Source of the DNA: a virus
Lineage: Duplodnaviria > Heunggongvirae > Uroviricota > Caudoviricetes
Direction: 5' to 3' (one strand)
DNA: 43,151 bases
Virus record (IMG/VR): IMGVR_UViG_2917403263_000003
In this document: in pieces, positions 3,796-29,336 of the stretch
Layout: every line of letters begins with the position of its first letter
How positions within the stretch are numbered: the first letter of the stretch is position 1
Position numbers and translations under genes: made by a program
Notes under the pieces: model-generated
Seen by the model: only the letters and a program-made list of their open reading frames with translations
Databases searched by the model: none
What the model was told of the DNA's origin: nothing

Positions 3796-5457
3796 TCACC
3801 CCCAGAATGCATCACCATCGGTCATGCGAGAACGCTGACCAAAATTAATATCTCCCAGATTTTTCGTTACCCTGTCTGCCAGTTGTCCGGCATCCTCGCC
3901 GGGCTTCTGAGTGATGTTAAATTCCGCCCGTATCTGATACGTGGGTTTTACTTCCACCTGGCTGATACTGCCGGGGGTATCCTGAAGAGCCGAGAGAGGA
4001 TCCGGGTTTTTCTGCTCCTGCCCGACAGCAGGCAGCGCACCATATTTCACCAGACCATTGCGGATTGCCTCTTCCCACCCCTTAAAGTCGGGAGTATCTT
4101 CTGGCCCCAGCAAAGGGTCGAGAAATGCATCAAACTTTTTATCGTCATGATTCCATGGGAGATAACCGCGAGTGTCTTTATAGGCCTGTACAACCTGTTT
4201 CGTCAGGTCCGGATTTTGCCTGAGAAGTTCATCAAACCATTCACCCTGACCGTTTTTCTGCGCCACCGCTCTCGCCAGCTCCGGCGACCCCATTTTTGCC
4301 AGATATTCCAGCACTTCTCGTCGGTCCTCTCGCGGATCATCCGCCAGCCCCCACTCAATGGCTTTTTGTGTAATTCCGCCCAATACTTTTCCGAATTTCC
4401 ACATCCATGCAGCCATCCTGATCAACGTCGGCAAAGCGACGTCATTTATAAATTCCTGAATTTTTTCAAGTCCACCATTCTTAAACCAGTCCGCAAGGTC
4501 ATCCGTCACCTGTTGAATATGTGGTGACAGCTCCTTACCCAGTTTCCCACTGATGTCATCAATGGAAGAGCTCAGAACATTACGGAGATTTGACAGCGCC
4601 ACATGCCCCTGAACTGCGCCATCAGCCCCTTCCTTTGTCACCAGGTTATAGCGTTTCTGCTCACTGATAAGTTCCTGGAAGGTCTTTCCTGACAGACGCA
4701 TCCAGGTCAGAATTTTATTGGCCTCACCACCAAACAGCGCATCTGCCATACCCGCCGCCTGCTGCTCATTCTCCACCTGCAGTAAGCGTTCAAACAAAAA
4801 TTCGACTTGCTCCTGGTTGCTTTTTCCGGCCATTACGCCCGCCTTCAGCCCCAGTTTACCGAATACCTCCTGAATGGCTCCTTTGTCCGTGGCACCATTA
4901 TCATCGTCAAAAACCTTGTTCCGGTATTCCTCAAACAGATCACCGATGTTTTCGCCGTTTAACCCCATCTGCCGGCCCAGTGAATCCCACGCCGCATAGG
5001 TTTCATAATCCACCCCGTAACTCCGGGCTATCCCTGACCGCTCTGCCGTTTCCGCATTCCGGTTCAGTACCGCGCCGGCACCGGCTGCCAGCGTCAGTCC
5101 GGAACCAACCGAAAGCCCCAGCCCGGTTTTAAGAACCGTCCCGGCCCGTCCTTTCCAGCGTTCCAGACGTTCTGCCCGCGCCAGCTTACGGTTAAATTTA
5201 TCCTGTTCCCCGGTGGCATCATGAATTTTTCTGCCCAGCTTTTCATACTGCTTTCGCAGTTCGGTAATATCCTGTCCTGCCAGTACACCAGCCTGAATTT
5301 TTCGTTTCAGTACGTCCTGCTGGCGTGTCAGGCGAGCCACTTCCTGTGTTGCCCCTGATAATCCGTGCTTCAGTCCATCAACCGATTTTTTCCACGACGG
5401 ATCTATCGAACCTCCGATCCGGATATTCGCTTTAAGGTTATCGCCCACCGTTGCCAT
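3796..5457 (-). CDS. tail tape measure protein
   Basis: 553 aa, Gly/Ala-rich N-terminal segment, long helical region; positioned after chaperone E/E' and before U; ATG at 5455-5457. Confidence 0.8.
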   Translation of the reverse strand: MATVGDNLKANIRIGGSIDPSWKKSVDGLKHGLSGATQEVARLTRQQDVLKRKIQAGVLAGQDITELRKQYEKLGRKIHDATGEQDKFNRKLARAERLERWKGRAGTVLKTGLGLSVGSGLTLAAGAGAVLNRNAETAERSGIARSYGVDYETYAAWDSLGRQMGLNGENIGDLFEEYRNKVFDDDNGATDKGAIQEVFGKLGLKAGVMAGKSNQEQVEFLFERLLQVENEQQAAGMADALFGGEANKILTWMRLSGKTFQELISEQKRYNLVTKEGADGAVQGHVALSNLRNVLSSSIDDISGKLGKELSPHIQQVTDDLADWFKNGGLEKIQEFINDVALPTLIRMAAWMWKFGKVLGGITQKAIEWGLADDPREDRREVLEYLAKMGSPELARAVAQKNGQGEWFDELLRQNPDLTKQVVQAYKDTRGYLPWNHDDKKFDAFLDPLLGPEDTPDFKGWEEAIRNGLVKYGALPAVGQEQKNPDPLSALQDTPGSISQVEVKPTYQIRAEFNITQKPGEDAGQLADRVTKNLGDINFGQRSRMTDGDAFWG

Positions 5458-23431: not shown

Positions 23432-23614
23432 TCAGTTCTGCAGACACAGCCGAACAACGTCGACAATTTCACAGACCTGAGAAGCTGTATCGAAAAGCTG
23501 GCGCGCCTTATCCAGGCTGGCGCATCCCACCAATAAAAAAGGCACCAGTATCACTACCAGTGCCCATTTCGCCGCCGTTCGCGGCATTCTGTGTGTCCAG
23601 TGTCTTCGACTCAT
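23432..23614 (-). CDS. putative small lipoprotein (possible outer-membrane lysis/spanin-like or Bor-like)
   Basis: Signal-peptide-like AAKWALVVILVPFLLVGC with lipobox-like LVGC; located downstream of endolysin. Confidence 0.25.
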   Translation of the reverse strand: MSRRHWTHRMPRTAAKWALVVILVPFLLVGCASLDKARQLFDTASQVCEIVDVVRLCLQN

Positions 23615-23855
23615 GTCACCACCAACGCACAGCCCAAATCAGAACAGCGATCGCCACAAGGCGAATTGCAAAGGCTGCAGCCCTTGTCAGATCAAGGCTC
23701 GCGGGAGTTTCAACTTCTATGCCTCTCATAATGGACAACCTCAAAAAGAATCTTTTATACTTTCCCACGAGGATTTTCTCCGCACTCACTGTTCACAATT
23801 TCCTCACCTCATGCTGTTTTGCAACTTGTTGTTCCTTTTCATGGCGTGAAAACTA

Positions 23856-23895: not shown

Positions 23896-24273
23896 TTATC
23901 GTTTCAACTGAAAGTGAGGTCCGTCTTTCAGTGTTTTCCAGTCCCCGCCCCATTCGATGGCAGTTCCCAGCTCTGCGGCAGCCTGCTTAAATGCCTGCGC
24001 GATTTTCTCGTACAGAGGCCAGTCCCATGACACCTGGCTGCCAACGTAGGCCACAACATCCACCGCATCACCCGTCAGGTGGCGGCTGTTCATGGTCTGA
24101 CTTTTTCCTTCCGCGACCAGCTGTTTCTGGCGATACTTACTGCGCAGGCCTTCCGTAATACCAAAATCAACCTCCGTCAGCTCCAGCGCACGGCGAACGA
24201 CAGCAACCAGCTGTGGTTTGATGCCCTCCAGATTTTTTTCACTGCGACGGCTGAATCTGAATTTACCCGACAT
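23896..24273 (-). CDS. endolysin, M15-family L-alanyl-D-glutamate peptidase
   Basis: 125 aa; HLTGDAVDV and WGGDW motifs typical of Peptidase_M15 endolysins; ATG 24271-24273 just after upstream stop. Confidence 0.75.
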   Translation of the reverse strand: MSGKFRFSRRSEKNLEGIKPQLVAVVRRALELTEVDFGITEGLRSKYRQKQLVAEGKSQTMNSRHLTGDAVDVVAYVGSQVSWDWPLYEKIAQAFKQAAAELGTAIEWGGDWKTLKDGPHFQLKR

Positions 24274-24275
24274 AC

Positions 24276-24551
24276 TCACCTCAACAATGGAAAGATTCTT
24301 GTGACGTTCCCGCGTGCACGTATTACCAGTACGCAGAACAACAGATTAAAAAATACGTCCAGCCAGCCCGTTGCTAACGGGCGACCACACAGATAGCTGA
24401 GTGGCGCAATGGCATAAAGCAGCATCAGCAGCCAGGCCAGCCATGACATCAGCGGTTTATGCGTGGAATCTTTACGTCGATAAAAAAAGAGCGTCAGCAC
24501 GATAACCATGCATAACGCCACGTTCAGCAATCCGGGAAGGTTACTTAACAT
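24276..24551 (-). CDS. putative holin/antiholin-like membrane protein
   Basis: 91 aa from ATG 24549-24551 with GGAGG RBS; two or three hydrophobic helices; directly upstream of endolysin. Confidence 0.4.
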   Translation of the reverse strand: MLSNLPGLLNVALCMVIVLTLFFYRRKDSTHKPLMSWLAWLLMLLYAIAPLSYLCGRPLATGWLDVFFNLLFCVLVIRARGNVTRIFPLLR

Positions 24552-24934
24552 TTGCCGCCTCCTCCGCCCCGCAGGCGGGAGAACAGACCGGACACCAGTG
24601 ATGCAATATCCTGCTGGTGGATGAACGACAGAATCTTCACCGACACCACTGACACCAGCACTGCACAAAGTGCATCCGCAGATGTACCGTCATAACCTGT
24701 TTTTGATGCAATCCAAGCTGACAGCACACGTGCCCCCAGCACGCCGACAATGAACGACACCAGAAAATGCGCAGCCACACGCCAGGCTGAAAGTGACTGC
24801 GGCATCGTTGCCACAAACAACGCTCCCGCAAATGCACCAAACACAATCCCGAAATCCGTTCCGGTAAACAGCCCGAATACCGTCGCCCCACCGAGCGCCG
24901 CAGCCGTACCGGAACCGGACAAGGGTTCAGACAT
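24545..24934 (-). CDS. putative holin
   Basis: 129 aa from ATG 24932-24934 with AGGAG RBS; Gly/Ala-rich transmembrane segments, Gly-rich basic C-terminus. Confidence 0.5.
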   Translation of the reverse strand: MSEPLSGSGTAAALGGATVFGLFTGTDFGIVFGAFAGALFVATMPQSLSAWRVAAHFLVSFIVGVLGARVLSAWIASKTGYDGTSADALCAVLVSVVSVKILSFIHQQDIASLVSGLFSRLRGGGGGKC

Positions 24935-25026
24935 ACTTTTTCTCCTGTAAATAAAAAAGGGCCACCAGCGGCCCGTAAAAAAACAGCACCCAATCAAAGG
25001 CGCCCGCAGACGCCTTTTGTGTGGTG

Positions 25027-25179
25027 TTATTCAGATTTACGCAGTAAAGGCCGGAGCACGACCAGCGCCATTGCCACCAGCACACCATCTGCCAGTACCG
25101 ACATCAGCCGTCCGGTGAAATCCACCACCACTACCAGAAACAGCAGGATGGCAGCCAGCACAAGGCGCGCACTTTTCAC
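25027..25179 (-). CDS. small hydrophobic peptide (about 50 aa), not in ORF track
   Basis: GTG at 25177-25179 overlapping TerB-like stop (GTGA); translation VKSARLVLAAILLFLVVVVDFTGRLMSVLADGVLVAMALVVLRPLLRKSE. Confidence 0.2.
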   Translation of the reverse strand: MKSARLVLAAILLFLVVVVDFTGRLMSVLADGVLVAMALVVLRPLLRKSE

Positions 25180-25601
25180 AGATACTGCTCCAGTGGTAGC
25201 TGCAGCGCCTGCGCAATTTTCTTGAGCTGTGTCTCCTCCTCCGGACCAATGCCATCCTGGTCAGCAATATCCAGACACAGGCACAGCACATTAACTGCGT
25301 CATCAGTACCGGCAACATCAGCCAGCTGACGAAGGGCTTCGGCATTGGCAGAACGCGGTGACGCTTCATAACGGGCGCGGATATTGGCACTCATCTGGGC
25401 AATCTCACCGGAGAACGGCGCAAAGGCAGGAAGTGCTGCAATGGTTTTCTCCAGTACCGCGATTTCTTTCGCATCACAAGTACCGTCGGCGAATGCAATG
25501 GAATACGCACCCCAGACAGTCGCCTCCACTGCATCGCGGTTCTCCATTTTCTTTACTTCAGTAATGGCTTTGCGGGTTTTCTTTTTGAAAATACCAAACA
25601 T
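25176..25601 (-). CDS. TerB-like domain protein
   Basis: 141 aa; IAFADGTCDAKEIAVLEKTI and CLCLDIADQDGIGPEEETQLKKIAQAL resemble the two halves of TerB; ATG 25599-25601 with AGGA RBS. Confidence 0.5.
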   Translation of the reverse strand: MFGIFKKKTRKAITEVKKMENRDAVEATVWGAYSIAFADGTCDAKEIAVLEKTIAALPAFAPFSGEIAQMSANIRARYEASPRSANAEALRQLADVAGTDDAVNVLCLCLDIADQDGIGPEEETQLKKIAQALQLPLEQYL

Positions 25602-25781
25602 CGTGACGTTTCCTTTTAGTGGGTGAGCCTGCGCCCGGGGGTGACCAGCCCACAGAGAAAGTCACACTGACCATCCCGTAAGTTCACCCCTGAAAGGCTC
25701 TGTGGTTTTGATGTGCGCCGGGCGTGGCGCGGAAATAAAAAAGGCCCGCCGTAGCAAGCCATGAAGAAACTGAATTCAGAA

Positions 25782-25808
25782 TAAAAAAAACCGCCCGGTG
25801 GAGGCGGT
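25782..25808 (-). terminator. intrinsic terminator downstream of tRNA pair
   Basis: accgcc-cggtgga-ggcggt hairpin followed by T8 on minus strand. Confidence 0.5.
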
Positions 25809-26169
25809 TGGTCAATGCATGAGATAAATCATTTTATTGTAATAAGAATCGAGGTGTCGGGTGCCTCCCGAAATATCCATCCCTACAACAGATATTGTGA
25901 TTCCCCGCTAAACCACTATATAAACCACCCTCGCACTGAGGAACACCTCTTTAGTGTTATTTACAACACCGGGATAGTGCATCATCGGCCCTGCCAGGAA
26001 ATACAAAACCTCCACCGATAATGCACCATTCCGTTGTTGTAAAAAAACAGCACTGTGACTACAACCGACCTCAAATCATAGCCAGAAAACAGAATGTCTT
26101 TTAAAAACAACCAGCCCCCACGTAACAAAAAAATACGCCAGTGCCACGATACAATAAGGCTTGTTTCTC

Positions 26170-26249
26170 TGGAGCGGGTCGCGGGAATCGAACCCGCATC
26201 ATCAGCCTGGAAGGTTGAGCTGAGGTAATAGCCATTATACGATACCCGC
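26170..26249 (-). tRNA. tRNA-Gly(UCC)-like gene with 5-nt insertion in anticodon arm (possible pseudo-tRNA)
   Basis: Acceptor, D and T arms and CCA match a tRNA-Gly(UCC) scaffold, but the anticodon region reads TCAGC-TCAACCTTCCAG-GCTGA (12-nt loop); acceptor position 7-66 mismatched. Confidence 0.5.
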
Positions 26250-26252
26250 ATA

Positions 26253-26328
<76 letters not shown>

Positions 26329-26496: not shown

Positions 26497-27543
26497 TTAA
26501 ACACTCAAATCAATTTCATTAACAGTCTGTTTAAATCTGTTTTCCTCAAGCTCCACCCCAACCGCTTTCCTCCCCAACGACAATGCCGCTTTTATTGTTG
26601 AGCCTGAACCCATGAAAAAATCCGCAACCAAATCACCGGGACGACTGCTGGCAGTAATTATCTGACGCAACATATCCGCCGGTTTTTCACAGGGATGTTT
26701 GCCGGGGTAATACTGCACTGGCTTGTGCGTCCAGACATCCGTATAAGGAACGGCAGCCGATACGGAAAAATAACGCCGCAGGGATTTGTACTCATCCAGC
26801 AGACTGACATATTGCCGGTTCAGTTCACTGTATGTGCTGACCAACTGGTGGTGTGGCTTTTCCAGTTCACCGCGTTGATGTTTTTCTGCTGCAACACGCG
26901 CAAACAACGCCTGCAGTTTTCTGTAATCATCCTCGTTCGGTAACTGCCACTGACTGGCACCAAACCAGTGCGAAGCCATATTTTTCTTTCCGGTAGCTTC
27001 CGCTATCTGTTTCGACGTTATCCCCAGTGATTCACGTGCATCACGAAAGTAAGAAATCAGCGGGGCCATGACGTGCTGTTTAAGCTCGCGACCCTTTGTC
27101 GCGTAGCCGTCATTTTTGGGTTGATATGGCCCCTGATAATGTTCAGCAAACAGAATGCGCTCTGTTGCCGGGAAATACGCCCGCAGGCTTTCCTTATTGC
27201 ACCCGTTCCAGCGTCCGGACGGTTTCGCCCAGATAATGTGGTTCAACACATTAAAACGTTCACGCATCATGATTTCGATATCAGATGCTAGGCGATGCCC
27301 ACAGAACAGATAAAGACTTCCGGCAGGTTTCAGTACCCGCCAGAACTGCGCCAGACACTGGTCCAGCCATTTCAGGTAATCATCGTCGCCCTTCCACTGG
27401 TTATCCCAGCCTTCGGGCTTCACTTTAAAGTATGGCGGGTCTGTGACTATCAGATCGACAGAGTTTTCCGGTAAAGTCTGGATAAATTCCAGGCAATTAG
27501 CGTTGATTAATTCACAACTGGATATTTTTACAGTATCAACCAT
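26497..27543 (-). CDS. DNA methyltransferase (N6-adenine/N4-cytosine, beta-class motif order), orphan
   Basis: 348 aa; DPPY motif near N-terminus and FxGxG (FFMGSGS) near C-terminus; no adjacent restriction endonuclease. Confidence 0.8.
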   Translation of the reverse strand: MVDTVKISSCELINANCLEFIQTLPENSVDLIVTDPPYFKVKPEGWDNQWKGDDDYLKWLDQCLAQFWRVLKPAGSLYLFCGHRLASDIEIMMRERFNVLNHIIWAKPSGRWNGCNKESLRAYFPATERILFAEHYQGPYQPKNDGYATKGRELKQHVMAPLISYFRDARESLGITSKQIAEATGKKNMASHWFGASQWQLPNEDDYRKLQALFARVAAEKHQRGELEKPHHQLVSTYSELNRQYVSLLDEYKSLRRYFSVSAAVPYTDVWTHKPVQYYPGKHPCEKPADMLRQIITASSRPGDLVADFFMGSGSTIKAALSLGRKAVGVELEENRFKQTVNEIDLSV

Positions 27544-28594: not shown

Positions 28595-28975
28595 TCAAAC
28601 CGACACAGCCAAATCCATCTCAAGAGAAACATCCAGCATCATTAACATACCATCAATAACGCCTTCTGCTTTTTGCAATCGTTTACCAATACAAGTATCA
28701 GAACACCCATGTTTCTCTGCCAGTCTCATGAATGTCATTCCAGCAACGTAATAGTCGACCAACAGATCATGTAATCTATTATTATTTTTCTTAAGGCGGG
28801 CCATACATCCACAAATAATCATTGCATCGTCATCACTACATTGTGGTCGTGATTTGACTTTTGAAGGAATAAGCCCTTTGAATCCTGCCGCAATAGTAGG
28901 CCAGGCCACATCTTCATAATTATTTGCAACCCACGCCCCCCAACGCTCAAGGACCATCTGAATATCACGCATCAT
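28595..28975 (-). CDS. late-gene antiterminator Q (phage 82/21-type)
   Basis: [15 protein letters not shown]...[13 protein letters not shown]...LLVDYYV closely resembles Q of phage 82 as recalled; ATG 28973-28975. Confidence 0.8.
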
Positions 28976-29336
28976 CGTTATCACCTGTAATTTCGAAAAT
29001 CTTCACACCCAGTCGCCCACCAAGAACAGGCAGCCCACGCACAATAGTAATTTCATCAAACTGCTCGTCATCGATAAGCAGTCCCGCATGCGTCAGTGCA
29101 TCCAGTGGTGCTTTCAGGATGTTGTCCAGGTCGCGGCGGCGCTTATCCGGTGGCTCTGCAACAATCTTTATTGCCAGCCTTCCGGACAGGTTTAATTTCA
29201 GCCGCTGCTGACGAACAATAAGCGCCACATCACGGCGATAACGCTCACCGGCTTTTGATACAAAATATGTGCTGCCACGACGTCGCCAGTAGGTGTTCAC
29301 CGTCGGCGGGTAAGGCAAAACAAACTCTATACGCAT
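28965..29336 (-). CDS. rusA: Holliday junction resolvase RusA
   Basis: 123 aa; [15 protein letters not shown] start and catalytic-region [18 protein letters not shown] typical of RusA. Confidence 0.85.

What the first reader, a model, noticed from the sequence alone, without database searches (positions are those of the whole stretch)
25027..25601. TerB-domain protein plus a 50-aa hydrophobic peptide leading the lysis cassette
The first gene after the tRNA terminator encodes a 141-aa protein with both TerB-like halves (IAFADGTCDAKEIAVLEKTI... and CLCLDIADQDGIGPEEETQLKKIAQAL). Its stop overlaps (GTGA) an unlisted ORF for a two-helix membrane peptide, followed by two holin-like proteins and the M15 endolysin. 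TerB domains are usually discussed in tellurite/stress and membrane-associated defence contexts, not as late-operon lysis components.
Basis: partly seen in the sequence, partly recalled or inferred. Interest (0 to 1): 0.5.

Follow-up and report, generated by a model that had tools for sequence, protein, structure and literature searches.

The report
Phage tciAB cargo with structured leader
The TerB-like gene and its 50-residue membrane peptide are the already-known phage P1 tciA/tciB pair sitting in the swappable cargo slot (where relatives carry Shiga toxin) ahead of the lysis genes, not a lysis component, but they are preceded by a conserved, unannotated, pseudoknotted RNA leader that hides the ribosome-binding site.

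Summary
On the minus strand, a 141-aa TerB-family protein (25176-25601) overlaps by GTGA a 50-aa two-helix DUF3927 peptide (25027-25179). Two holins and an M15 endolysin follow.

It is not new. These are homologues of phage P1 tciA/tciB (86% aa identity), annotated in hundreds of E. coli genomes.

The lysis-component reading is not supported:
- The pair also occurs in P1/P7 (ban operon), P2-like early operons, N4-like phages and jumbo phages, far from lysis genes.
- The same lysis cassette works without it. phiP27 carries stx2e in that slot and keeps a 3' tciB remnant. About half of E. coli copies lack tciAB.
- P1 knock-downs are non-essential.

It is a mobile accessory module in the Q–tRNA–[cargo]–lysis slot. 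Its protein function is still unknown; I infer a membrane-tethered TerB acting during lytic growth.

One unexpected result: the ~134 nt before tciA (25602-25735) form a conserved RNA with four helices, a pseudoknot and an anti-SD:SD pairing.
- Covariation supports it: 95% of cells paired against 37-51% in slid controls, and 26 of 43 pairs compensated.
- It is present in 1365 of 5426 E. coli genomes and in jumbo phages.
- It is absent from Rfam and unannotated in RefSeq.

The parts
26253..26328 (-). tRNA-Thr (UGU), upstream context
   Evidence: ARAGORN; Rfam tRNA 69.8 bits
26170..26249 (-). tRNA-Gly (UCC), upstream context
   Evidence: ARAGORN; Rfam
25779..25809 (-). Terminator-like hairpin plus T-tract downstream of the tRNAs
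   Evidence: Scan (8 pairs, followed by TTTTTTATTC)
25733..25760 (-). Terminator-like hairpin GGCTTGCTACGGCGGGCC plus T-tract. It marks the 5' boundary of the mobile tciAB module and is conserved whatever lies upstream.
   Evidence: Scan; alignment of different contexts
25602..25735 (-). Conserved structured 5' leader RNA of tciA. Helices in + coordinates: H0 25726-25730:25715-25719; pseudoknot PK (H0 loop) 25720-25724:25632-25636; H1 25698-25705:25650-25657; anti-SD CCUUU 25693-25697 : SD AAAGG 25612-25616; H2 25681-25689:25621-25629; H3 25667-25677:25638-25648.
   Evidence: Covariance-model hit of 148-159 bits. Covariation counts. RNAalifold. ViennaRNA. No Rfam family.
25176..25601 (-). tciA: 141-aa TerB-family protein, all-alpha with six helices and two ADG...E acidic motifs
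   Evidence: dN/dS about 0.04.
25027..25179 (-). tciB: 50-aa DUF3927 two-helix membrane peptide, with a GTG start overlapping the tciA stop (GTGA)
24950..25004 (-). Two tandem terminator-like hairpins between tciB and the holin RBS. This junction is shared: it is found after tciB in front of two unrelated holin types, and in front of this holin in prophages that lack tciAB.
   Evidence: Scan; alignments; breakpoints
24545..24934 (-). Holin 1 (Phage_holin_8); true start is the ATG of MSEPLSG
   Evidence: Pfam 4.7e-23; PHROG 198
24276..24551 (-). Holin 2 (3-TM Phage_holin_3_7)
   Evidence: Pfam 9e-21; PHROG 217
23896..24279 (-). M15 endolysin (L-alanyl-D-glutamate peptidase type)
   Evidence: Pfam Peptidase_M15_4 1.5e-12; PHROG 465 1e-74
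26497..27543 (-). DNA N6/N4 methyltransferase, part of the conserved frame upstream of the slot
   Evidence: Pfam 2.7e-44; same frame in phiP27
28595..28984 (-). Antiterminator Q, which defines the late operon containing tciAB
   Evidence: Pfam Phage_antitermQ 5.7e-53

Best explanation
tciA-tciB is a self-contained, horizontally mobile accessory module. It consists of an upstream terminator hairpin, a ~134-nt structured leader, tciA, a translationally coupled tciB, and a double terminator. It sits in the variable cargo slot of a lambdoid late operon (Q ... methylase - tRNAs - [cargo] - holins - endolysin). Relatives carry stx2e, stx2k or nothing in that slot.

Shown: (1) TciA is a full-length TerB-fold protein. 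(2) TciB is a conserved 2-TM peptide always encoded immediately after it with overlapping stop and start. (3) The pair is dispensable for the neighbouring lysis cassette and occurs in phages where it is nowhere near lysis genes. (4) In every phage class its position puts it in a lytic-cycle stretch of the genome: the lambdoid late operon, the C1-controlled ban operon of P1/P7, the P2-like early operon and the N4-like early region. It also occurs in strictly virulent phages. (5) The lambdoid and jumbo-phage versions carry a pseudoknotted leader whose consensus fold pairs an invariant CCUUU with the Shine-Dalgarno AAAGG.

Inferred: TciB tethers TciA to the cytoplasmic face of the inner membrane, as TerC does for TerB in ter operons. 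The complex would condition the envelope, ion balance or proton-motive force of the infected cell, for example by tolerance to pore-forming colicins or superinfecting phage, or by division arrest, until programmed lysis. The leader would keep tciA translation off until the fold is opened by an unknown trigger such as a ligand, a protein, RNase III processing or temperature. The module is not part of the holin-endolysin machinery.
For: Identity:
- Pfam TerB above cut-off.
- Profile against 2JXU, E=1.5e-17.
- AF2 model pLDDT 89 with six helices; top PDB fold match is 2H5N, which from my own knowledge SCOP files in the TerB-like superfamily (probability 1.0).
- 86% aa identity to P1 TciA.
- Invariant acidic ADG...E motifs.

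Pairing of the two genes:
- A DUF3927 ORF follows tciA in P1, P7, JLK-2012, LMessi, SP-076, Pollock and phiK7B1 above Pfam's cut-off; the ChrisDB ORF scores below it (E=0.053, 14 bits vs 25) but is annotated TciB-like.
- It follows tciA in 80 of 80 IMG/VR loci by tblastn, and as an intact ORF in 79 of 80.

Cargo behaviour:
- phiP27 has the same methylase-tRNA-[stx2e]-holin-holin-endolysin frame and retains about 100 nt of the tciB 3' end.
- E. coli W, P15-25 and STEC711 lack tciAB before the same holins.
- 166 of 365 genomes with this holin have the tciAB junction.
- tciAB also precedes S-type holins (8 of 80 loci) and sits 1-2 kb from S with nanS-p in between.

Contexts without lysis genes.

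Other points:
- Non-essential in P1 (PMC10695390) and transcribed during P1vir lytic infection (bioRxiv 2025.12.28.696737).
- TerB partners the membrane protein TerC (Turkovicova 2016 as cited in PMC11003894), and Vibrio phage MS02 has TerD-x-TerC-TerB.

Leader:
- Module boundaries.
- Covariance-model hits.
- 95.3% of cells paired against 37-51% when partners are slid; 26 of 43 pairs with double changes against 10.9 +/- 1.9 in shuffles.
- Helices not used to build the model: 97.9% paired against 34-61%.
- The unconstrained MFE of the Klebsiella-type and ChrisDB leaders equals the SD-sequestering fold.
Against: - No experiment links TciA or TciB to any phenotype. The 'tellurite/colicin/cell division' labels are by homology only.
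- Membrane tethering of TciA by TciB is inferred from gene order, not shown. I obtained no contact prediction.
- In 66 of 80 close relatives a holin lies within 2.5 kb downstream of tciA, mostly about 90-120 nt after tciB. A functional link to lysis timing therefore cannot be excluded by genomics.
- PADLOC finds no defence-system match.
- The leader precedes functionally unrelated genes as well: KilAC antirepressor, KilA-N and tail-tip-like proteins. It therefore says little about TerB function.
- The anti-SD:SD helix is invariant, so it is not itself proven by covariation.
- The single-sequence fold of the window leader is not unusually stable (z = -1.29).
Confidence: 0.6

Rival explanations
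1. Lysis-timing component. TciB, a small 2-TM peptide, and TciA would act with the holins as an antiholin-like regulator, or as protection against premature triggering. They would be co-transcribed from the late promoter and placed just before the holin for stoichiometric expression.
For: A holin lies within 2.5 kb downstream in 66 of 80 close loci, across two unrelated holin families. The pair lies in the same Q-dependent operon. TciB has a holin-like size and topology. The ter operon is linked to resistance to pore-forming colicins (Whelan 1995 as cited in PMC7371120).
Against: The pair is conserved in P1/P7, P2-like, N4-like and jumbo phages far from lysis genes. The same lysis cassette exists without it in phiP27, a phage I recall from the literature as inducible and lysogenising (own knowledge), and in about half of E. 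coli copies. Two terminator hairpins and, in some phages, 1-2 kb of other cargo separate it from the holin. P1 knock-down is non-essential.
Confidence: 0.12
2. Lysogenic-conversion moron. TciAB would be expressed from the prophage and give the lysogen resistance to tellurite, colicins or phage, like the plasmid ter operon.
For: PHROG files both genes under 'moron/host takeover'. The slot is the stx/LT-II moron slot. The module is bracketed by terminators. The ter operon confers Te, Phi and PacB phenotypes.
Against: No sigma-70-like promoter was found in the 140-nt leader. A terminator sits directly upstream, and the SD is sequestered in the consensus fold. In all four phage classes the position is within lytic-cycle operons. 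The pair is present in virulent N4-like and jumbo phages, which form no lysogens. The smallest ter construct named as tellurite-resistant in PMC11003894 carries terBCDEF (pLK18), and from my own knowledge TerB alone is not known to suffice.
Confidence: 0.15
3. Anti-defence decoy. A free phage TerB with a small membrane anchor would mimic or titrate host TerB-domain sensors (the ter operon Phi phenotype, Shango, Bunzi) and block membrane-surveillance immunity.
For: TerB domains occur in the defence systems Bunzi and Shango (Millman 2022 preprint). Phage TerB is widespread in virulent phages. Its position in each phage class suggests lytic-cycle expression.
Against: This is purely analogical. 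There is no co-occurrence or exclusion data. TciA keeps the conserved acidic motifs of a functional TerB rather than a degenerate mimic.
Confidence: 0.07

Closest known systems
Phage P1/P7 tciA-tciB(-tciC) operon
   Same: TciA is 86% identical. A DUF3927 TciB follows directly with overlapping stop and start. tRNA genes and a DNA methyltransferase are neighbours. The pair is non-essential, with function known only by homology.
   Different: In P1/P7 it lies in the C1-controlled ban operon, has a third small gene tciC, and lacks the structured leader (no model hit in L002 or L010). Here it lies in a Q-dependent late operon just before the holins, has no tciC, and has the leader.
TerB of plasmid/chromosomal terZABCDEF operons (KP-TerB, PDB 2JXU)
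   Same: Same family and fold, same size, conserved acidic motifs, and association with a membrane partner.
   Different: There are no terZ/A/C/D/E neighbours. The partner is a 50-aa peptide instead of the multi-pass TerC. A single-sequence search does not even reach 2JXU.
Stx/LT-II 'moron' slot of lambdoid late operons (phiP27 stx2e, Stx2k phage)
   Same: Identical flanks (methylase - tRNAs - X - holin - holin - M15 endolysin), with Q-dependent late transcription inferred from the position downstream of Q.
   Different: The cargo is tciAB rather than a toxin. phiP27 still carries the 3' end of tciB, which indicates replacement of tciAB by stx2e or recombination inside tciB.
SD-sequestering structured leaders (translational riboswitches, RNA thermometers, RNase III-processed phage leaders such as lambda N or T7 R sites)
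   Same: A long imperfect helix pairs an anti-SD with the SD directly upstream of the start codon. Tertiary pseudoknots are present and the element is conserved across distant phages.
   Different: It matches none of the 4227 Rfam families. No ligand or factor is known. It precedes unrelated genes: tciA, KilAC antirepressor, KilA-N and tail-tip-like proteins.

Membership tests
TerB family (Pfam PF05099) | Profile match above the curated threshold | tested here: met
   30.2 bits against a cut-off of 24.4, E=6.2e-7. Homologues carry PF05099.
TerB family (Pfam PF05099) | Full-length homology to an experimentally solved TerB | tested here: met
   Profile A2 against 2JXU, E=1.5e-17, positions 14-137 aligned to 20-144. 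The single sequence alone fails.
TerB family (Pfam PF05099) | All-alpha TerB-like fold with two conserved acidic (A)DG...E motifs | tested here: met
   AF2 pLDDT 89 with six helices. Top Foldseek hit 2H5N, probability 1.0, TM about 0.5. D39/G40/E46 and D116/G117/E122 are invariant or nearly so.
ter operon (terZABCDEF) system | Co-location with terC, terD, terE and related genes | tested here: not met
   No ter genes flank it in the window or in related loci. Only Vibrio phage MS02 has TerD/TerC next to TerB.
ter operon (terZABCDEF) system | Confers resistance to tellurite, colicins or phage | not testable with these tools
   Needs MIC and plating assays.
P1-type tciAB module | TciA homologue immediately followed by a translationally coupled DUF3927 peptide | tested here: met
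   GTGA overlap. DUF3927 1.6e-14. tblastn finds a TciB homologue next to tciA in 80 of 80 loci; 79 of 80 have an intact coupled ORF.
P1-type tciAB module | Third small gene tciC | tested here: not met
   Only 92 nt, made of two hairpins, lie between tciB and the holin. P1 TciC gave no tblastn hit in the 80 related loci.
Holin/antiholin lysis component | Obligate co-occurrence with, and requirement for, the lysis cassette | tested here: not met
   The pair is found without lysis neighbours. The cassette is found without the pair.
Holin/antiholin lysis component | Effect on lysis timing | not testable with these tools
   Needs induction curves of deletion mutants.
Moron (autonomous promoter-gene-terminator unit expressed from the prophage) | Own terminator | tested here: met
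   Double terminator after tciB.
Moron (autonomous promoter-gene-terminator unit expressed from the prophage) | Own promoter active in the lysogen | tested here: inconclusive
   No sigma-70-like site lies between 25743 and 25602 in the consensus scan. The scan is crude and no expression data exist.
Any Rfam 15 RNA family (for the leader) | Covariance-model match | tested here: not met
   No hit at E<=1 over 25602-25735 or over the jumbo-phage and second-copy instances.
Riboswitch | Conserved, covariation-supported aptamer-like fold coupled to an expression platform | tested here: met
   Four helices plus a pseudoknot with compensatory changes; SD pairing.
Riboswitch | Specific ligand and functionally coherent regulated genes | tested here: not met
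   Downstream genes are unrelated: TerB, KilAC antirepressor, KilA-N, tail-tip-like. Ligand binding is not testable here.

The most novel reading that the evidence does not exclude
The ~134-nt tciA leader would be an undescribed class of phage cis-regulatory RNA. Its fold is a double-pseudoknotted structure that locks the Shine-Dalgarno sequence. It is conserved from lambdoid prophages (a quarter of complete E. coli genomes, including O157:H7) to 240-kb jumbo phages. It is reused in front of antirepressor-like genes and would be opened by a specific signal of the lytic programme (ligand, phage or host protein, or RNase III). That would make TciAB and other late accessory genes conditionally translated.
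Probability: 0.4. Interest if true: 0.7.

Novelty: new variant of a known kind. Interest (0 to 1): 0.5.

Why it matters
**The gene pair.** By itself it is ordinary: it is tciAB, long annotated though never characterised. Two things make the locus useful.

First, it is a minimal TerB system of one TerB protein plus a 50-aa membrane peptide, carried by temperate and virulent phages alike. The molecular role of TerB, both in ter operons and in defence systems such as Shango and Bunzi, has been open for decades. A two-gene phage version is a tractable model.

Second, the module carries a conserved, unannotated structured RNA that hides the ribosome-binding site. It occurs in 1365 of 5426 complete E. 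coli genomes, including EHEC prophages at the position where Stx phages carry stx. If it is a regulated switch, it would be a new control point for late-operon cargo expression in medically relevant prophages.

**Recombination junctions.** Showing that tciAB and stx2e are alternative occupants of one slot, with a tciB remnant left in phiP27, documents where toxin cassettes recombine.

Tried and rejected
- Single-sequence search of TciA against PDB sequences found only chance PNPase matches. The profile was needed.
- PADLOC and NCBIfam gave nothing for either protein.
- GC content does not set tciAB apart from the lysis genes, so there is no compositional argument for recent import.
- The genome-contig scan with the 16-mer GAGCCTTTCRGGGGTG returned almost only chance matches in unrelated phyla.
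- Of the 28 viral loci from the 18-mer scan, only the jumbo phages and L123 were true instances by covariance model.
- The MAFFT alignment misaligned the jumbo-phage leaders. I replaced it with a model-guided alignment.
- The single-sequence MFE of the window leader gave a different fold with z = -1.29, which is uninformative on its own.
- I considered an HDV-like double pseudoknot and RNase III site readings for the leader but could not test them.
- I considered that the leader might be a Pas sRNA or STnc100. The Pas preprint only lists TerB as a common neighbour. STnc100 gave a sub-threshold hit upstream of the leader, not on it.
- I did not model a TciA-TciB complex, because the structure tool returns no contact or PAE data.
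- The P1 genome paper could not be read: I requested it under a PMC id recalled from memory, and no paper with that id is held.
Full report
**1. What is at the coordinates**

All genes here run on the minus strand.
- ORF 25176-25601 encodes a 141-aa protein. ORF 25027-25179 encodes a 50-aa peptide whose GTG start overlaps the preceding TGA as GTGA.
- tRNA-Thr and tRNA-Gly lie upstream at 26170-26328.
- Two terminator-like hairpins follow the tRNAs (25809-25789 and 25760-25743). Two more lie between the peptide gene and the next RBS (25004-24985 and 24974-24959). The scan found 13 terminator-like sites in the region against 3.8 +/- 2.4 expected.
- Downstream are a Phage_holin_8 protein, a 3-TM Phage_holin_3_7 protein and a Peptidase_M15_4 endolysin.
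- Upstream of the tRNAs are a DNA methyltransferase, a small TrmB-like gene and antiterminator Q. The whole stretch is therefore a lambdoid late operon.

**2. Identity of the two proteins**

The 141-aa protein:
- It passes the Pfam TerB threshold (30.2 against 24.4 bits) and matches PHROG 632 at 1.4e-64.
- Alone it does not reach any solved TerB. A profile of ten phage homologues hits the NMR structure of Klebsiella TerB (2JXU) at E=1.5e-17 over almost the whole length.
- An AlphaFold model from 35 homologues is confident (pLDDT 89) and shows six helices. Its best PDB fold match is 2H5N (probability 1.0, TM about 0.5). From my own knowledge, SCOP files 2H5N in the TerB-like superfamily.
- Two acidic (A)DG...E motifs are invariant or nearly so.

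The 50-aa peptide:
- It is Pfam DUF3927 (1.6e-14) and PHROG 1470 'TciB-like'.
- It has two hydrophobic segments separated by a conserved DFT(S/G) turn, and a WP..K tail in relatives.

Nucleotide and protein searches show these are homologues of phage P1 tciA and tciB: 80% nt and 86% aa identity. RefSeq already annotates the pair as 'tellurite resistance TerB family protein | DUF3927 family protein' in hundreds of E. coli genomes.

Both genes are under purifying selection: dN/dS is about 0.04 for tciA and about 0.33 for the short tciB. tciB is intact in 79 of 80 relatives, with a conserved -4 or -1 overlap.

**3. Is it part of the lysis cassette?**

The evidence says no. The pair is conserved in contexts that have no lysis genes nearby:
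- P1 and P7, in the C1-controlled ban operon between tRNA genes.
- P2/186-like phages, between a CII-like gene and TraR/Dam/replication protein A.
- Virulent N4-like phages, next to dUTPase and early genes.
- 240-kb Erwinia and Salmonella jumbo phages, inside a tRNA cluster.

One Vibrio phage has TerD-x-TerC-TerB.

Conversely, the same holin-holin-M15 cassette occurs without tciAB:
- phiP27 has the identical frame (methylase - tRNAs - X - holin - holin - endolysin) with stx2e A/B as X. Alignment shows it still carries about 100 nt of the 3' end of tciB plus both terminators.
- E. coli W and P15-25 go from the tRNAs to the holin with no gene between. STEC711 carries stx2k and other cargo.
- Among complete E. 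coli genomes, 365 have this holin's 5' region but only 166 have the tciAB junction. Breakpoints cluster at the tciB stop, inside tciB, or after the second terminator.

In 80 close IMG/VR relatives:
- tciAB is followed by Holin8-type cassettes in 58, by unrelated S-type holins in 8, and by no recognised lysis gene in 8. Six contigs were too short to judge.
- Some have 1-2 kb of other cargo (nanS-p) before S, as in JLK-2012 and O157:H7 prophages.

The double terminator after tciB is a shared junction. It follows tciB in front of both holin types, and it precedes this holin in prophages that lack tciAB.

P1 CRISPRi knock-downs of tciA, tciB and tciC are non-essential (PMC10695390).

Adjacency to holins is therefore what one expects of the only cargo slot in a lambdoid late operon. 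It is not evidence of a lysis role.

**4. What the proteins probably do**

No experiment exists. [quoted passage not shown]
- What is shown is the anatomy: a soluble TerB-fold protein, translationally coupled to a tiny 2-TM peptide.
- In every phage class the genes sit in a lytic-cycle stretch of the genome, and they occur in phages that never lysogenise. P1 tci transcripts are seen during lytic infection.
- Canonical TerB associates with the inner membrane and with TerC (Alekhina 2011 as cited; Turkovicova 2016 as cited).

I therefore infer that TciB is the membrane anchor or partner of TciA, and that the complex acts on envelope, ion or PMF physiology of the infected cell. Which output it has (colicin or superinfection tolerance, division arrest, metal handling) is open.

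The rivals are a lysis-timing regulator, a lysogenic-conversion moron, and a decoy against TerB-based defence. Each is listed with its evidence. PADLOC gives no defence match.

**5. An unexpected feature: a structured leader**

Aligning the region upstream of tciA from loci with different upstream neighbours shows that homology starts at the terminator hairpin GGCT(C/T)GCT..GGCGGGCC-T6. It continues through about 134 nt to the ATG. The neighbours compared were tRNA-Met/Arg, tRNA-Val, Q, methylase and no tRNA.

The same leader is recognisable in front of tciA genes that are only about 40% identical in protein. These include O157-type prophages, JLK-2012 and the jumbo phages, and they carry compensatory substitutions.

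Helices in the window (+ coordinates):

| Element | Coordinates | Note |
|---|---|---|
| H0 | 25726-25730 : 25715-25719 | hairpin |
| PK | 25720-25724 : 25632-25636 | H0 loop CGCCC pairs with GGGCG |
| H1 | 25698-25705 : 25650-25657 | crosses H2 and H3 |
| anti-SD : SD | 25693-25697 : 25612-25616 | invariant CCUUU pairs with AAAGG |
| H2 | 25681-25689 : 25621-25629 | |
| H3 | 25667-25677 : 25638-25648 | |

Searches with a covariance model built from H0, the anti-SD helix, H2 and H3 gave:
- Every lambdoid tciA tested, at 108-168 bits (81-85 bits in the divergent L090/L091).
- The jumbo phages, at 42-61 bits.
- No hit upstream of tciA in P1, P7, P2-like, N4-like, Pseudomonas or Vibrio phages.
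- Only one copy in the window, with filters off.

Covariation on the model-guided alignment of 38 distinct sequences:
- 95.3% of cells pair, against 37-51% when partners are slid.
- 26 of 43 pairs show changes on both sides, against 10.9 +/- 1.9 in shuffles (0 of 500 shuffles reach the observed value).

The two helices that were not in the model (PK and H1) are 97.9% paired against 34-61% in slid controls. They have 31 double-change cells against 6.1 +/- 2.1; one PK pair is CG 21, UA 9, AU 5.

Read directly from the sequences, the PK pairing occurs as five combinations:
- CGCCC:GGGCG
- CGCUC:GAGCG
- GGCUC:GAGCC
- CGCAC:GUGCG
- CUCAC:GUGAG

RNAalifold recovers H0, the anti-SD:SD helix, H2 and part of H3. 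For the Klebsiella-type and ChrisDB leaders the unconstrained MFE is exactly this SD-sequestering fold (-52.0 and -48.1 kcal/mol). An H1-only nested alternative is 8-20 kcal/mol worse. H1 and PK are therefore best read as tertiary pseudoknots on an extended hairpin that buries the SD.

The anti-SD helix itself is invariant and so is not proven by covariation. The window leader's own MFE is not exceptional (z = -1.29).

**6. Spread and novelty of the leader**

- A 159-nt query (terminator plus leader) finds 2876 places in 1365 of 5426 complete E. coli genomes, up to six per genome, with no annotated feature beneath. In O157:H7 the leader sits between tRNA-Arg and the TerB gene.
- Second, more divergent copies lie after the lysis cassette in some prophages. 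They sit directly before genes for a KilAC antirepressor-domain protein, a KilA-N/ORF11CD3 protein and tail-tip-like proteins.
- No Rfam 15 family matches any class at E<=1. No paper in the held library prints the core sequences.
- A 2026 preprint on Pas sRNAs notes TerB as a frequent neighbour of PasA/PasC near holin-lysozyme operons, but does not describe this leader in the passages I read. I could not compare the Pas sequences.

The function of the leader is inferred only: it keeps translation off until it is opened. Because the regulated genes are unrelated, a metabolite riboswitch is less likely than a phage-programme signal, RNase III processing or a physical cue.

**7. Verdict**

- The 'lysis component' reading is not supported.
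- The gene pair is a new member of the known tciAB family in the stx-type cargo slot.
- The additional value is the covariation-supported, unannotated leader RNA and the documented tciAB/stx2e replacement junction.
- Confidence is about 0.6 that the module is accessory cargo acting during lytic growth as a membrane-tethered TerB. It is about 0.9 that the leader is a genuine structured RNA. It is about 0.4 that the leader represents an undescribed regulated RNA class.

Noticed in passing
L003 (phiP27 NC_003356) about 5100-5215; window 25027-25121: phiP27 keeps the last ~100 nt of tciB and both terminators immediately downstream of stxB2e. stx2e therefore replaced tciA and the 5' part of tciB, or recombination occurred inside tciB.
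   Followed up: yes
window 26170-26328; L002, L006, L008, L010, L013, L098-L102, L252: tciAB lies next to tRNA genes in very different phages: P1/P7, lambdoid, jumbo Erwinia/Salmonella and Pseudomonas Nickievirus. 38 of the 78 close IMG/VR loci with enough upstream sequence have a tRNA within 1.6 kb upstream. No base rate was computed.
   Followed up: partly
L001 3810-3947(-), L034 6095-6233, L097 5911-6049, L094 6784-6902, L078 6309-6426, L096 6740-6858, L087 7398-7514, L086 7471-7589: Divergent second copies of the leader RNA lie after the lysis cassette. They directly precede KilAC antirepressor, KilA-N/ORF11CD3 and tail-tip-like genes, with the pseudoknot and H1 kept by compensatory changes. 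In L097 the ORF starting at the leader's ATG is only 17 codons.
   Followed up: partly
window 25957-26046 (-): A ~90-nt long hairpin lies between tRNA-Gly and the first terminator. It gives only sub-threshold miRNA-precursor-like Rfam hits, and there is a weak STnc100 hit at 25779-25977. Its function is unknown.
   Followed up: no
P0049 (196 aa), P0124 (197 aa): Database proteins in which TerB and DUF3927 are fused in one ORF. These may be natural frameshift fusions across the overlapping stop/start, or sequencing errors.
   Followed up: no
L012 (Vibrio phage vB_VpaP-MS02) 1-2670: A phage carrying TerD, a hypothetical gene, TerC and TerB in a row, followed by a 64-aa ORF that is not DUF3927. 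This is a mini ter operon in a phage.
   Followed up: no
window 23432-23614 (-) and 23616-23789 (-): After the endolysin lies a 60-aa ORF with a lipobox (LLVGC), a possible o-spanin. It is preceded by a 57-aa ORF with a C-terminal hydrophobic stretch. Neither has a Pfam match and no canonical i-spanin was seen.
   Followed up: no
L253 (E. coli Ecol_AZ159) 2501-2742: A decayed leader (74% identity) followed directly by a DUF3927 pseudogene next to an IS200/IS605 transposase, outside an obvious prophage. tciA is apparently deleted.
   Followed up: no
window 24950-25004 (-); L014, L015, L031, L032, L036: The tandem terminator pair upstream of the holin is a conserved junction shared by tciAB-containing and tciAB-less prophages and by two holin types. 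It is a likely recombination linker between modules.
   Followed up: yes
window as a whole: The best matches in complete E. coli genomes are only 91-95% identical across this region. The source may be a less-sampled E. coli lineage or a related enterobacterium. IMG/VR has TciA at 99% identity (L018-L022).
   Followed up: no
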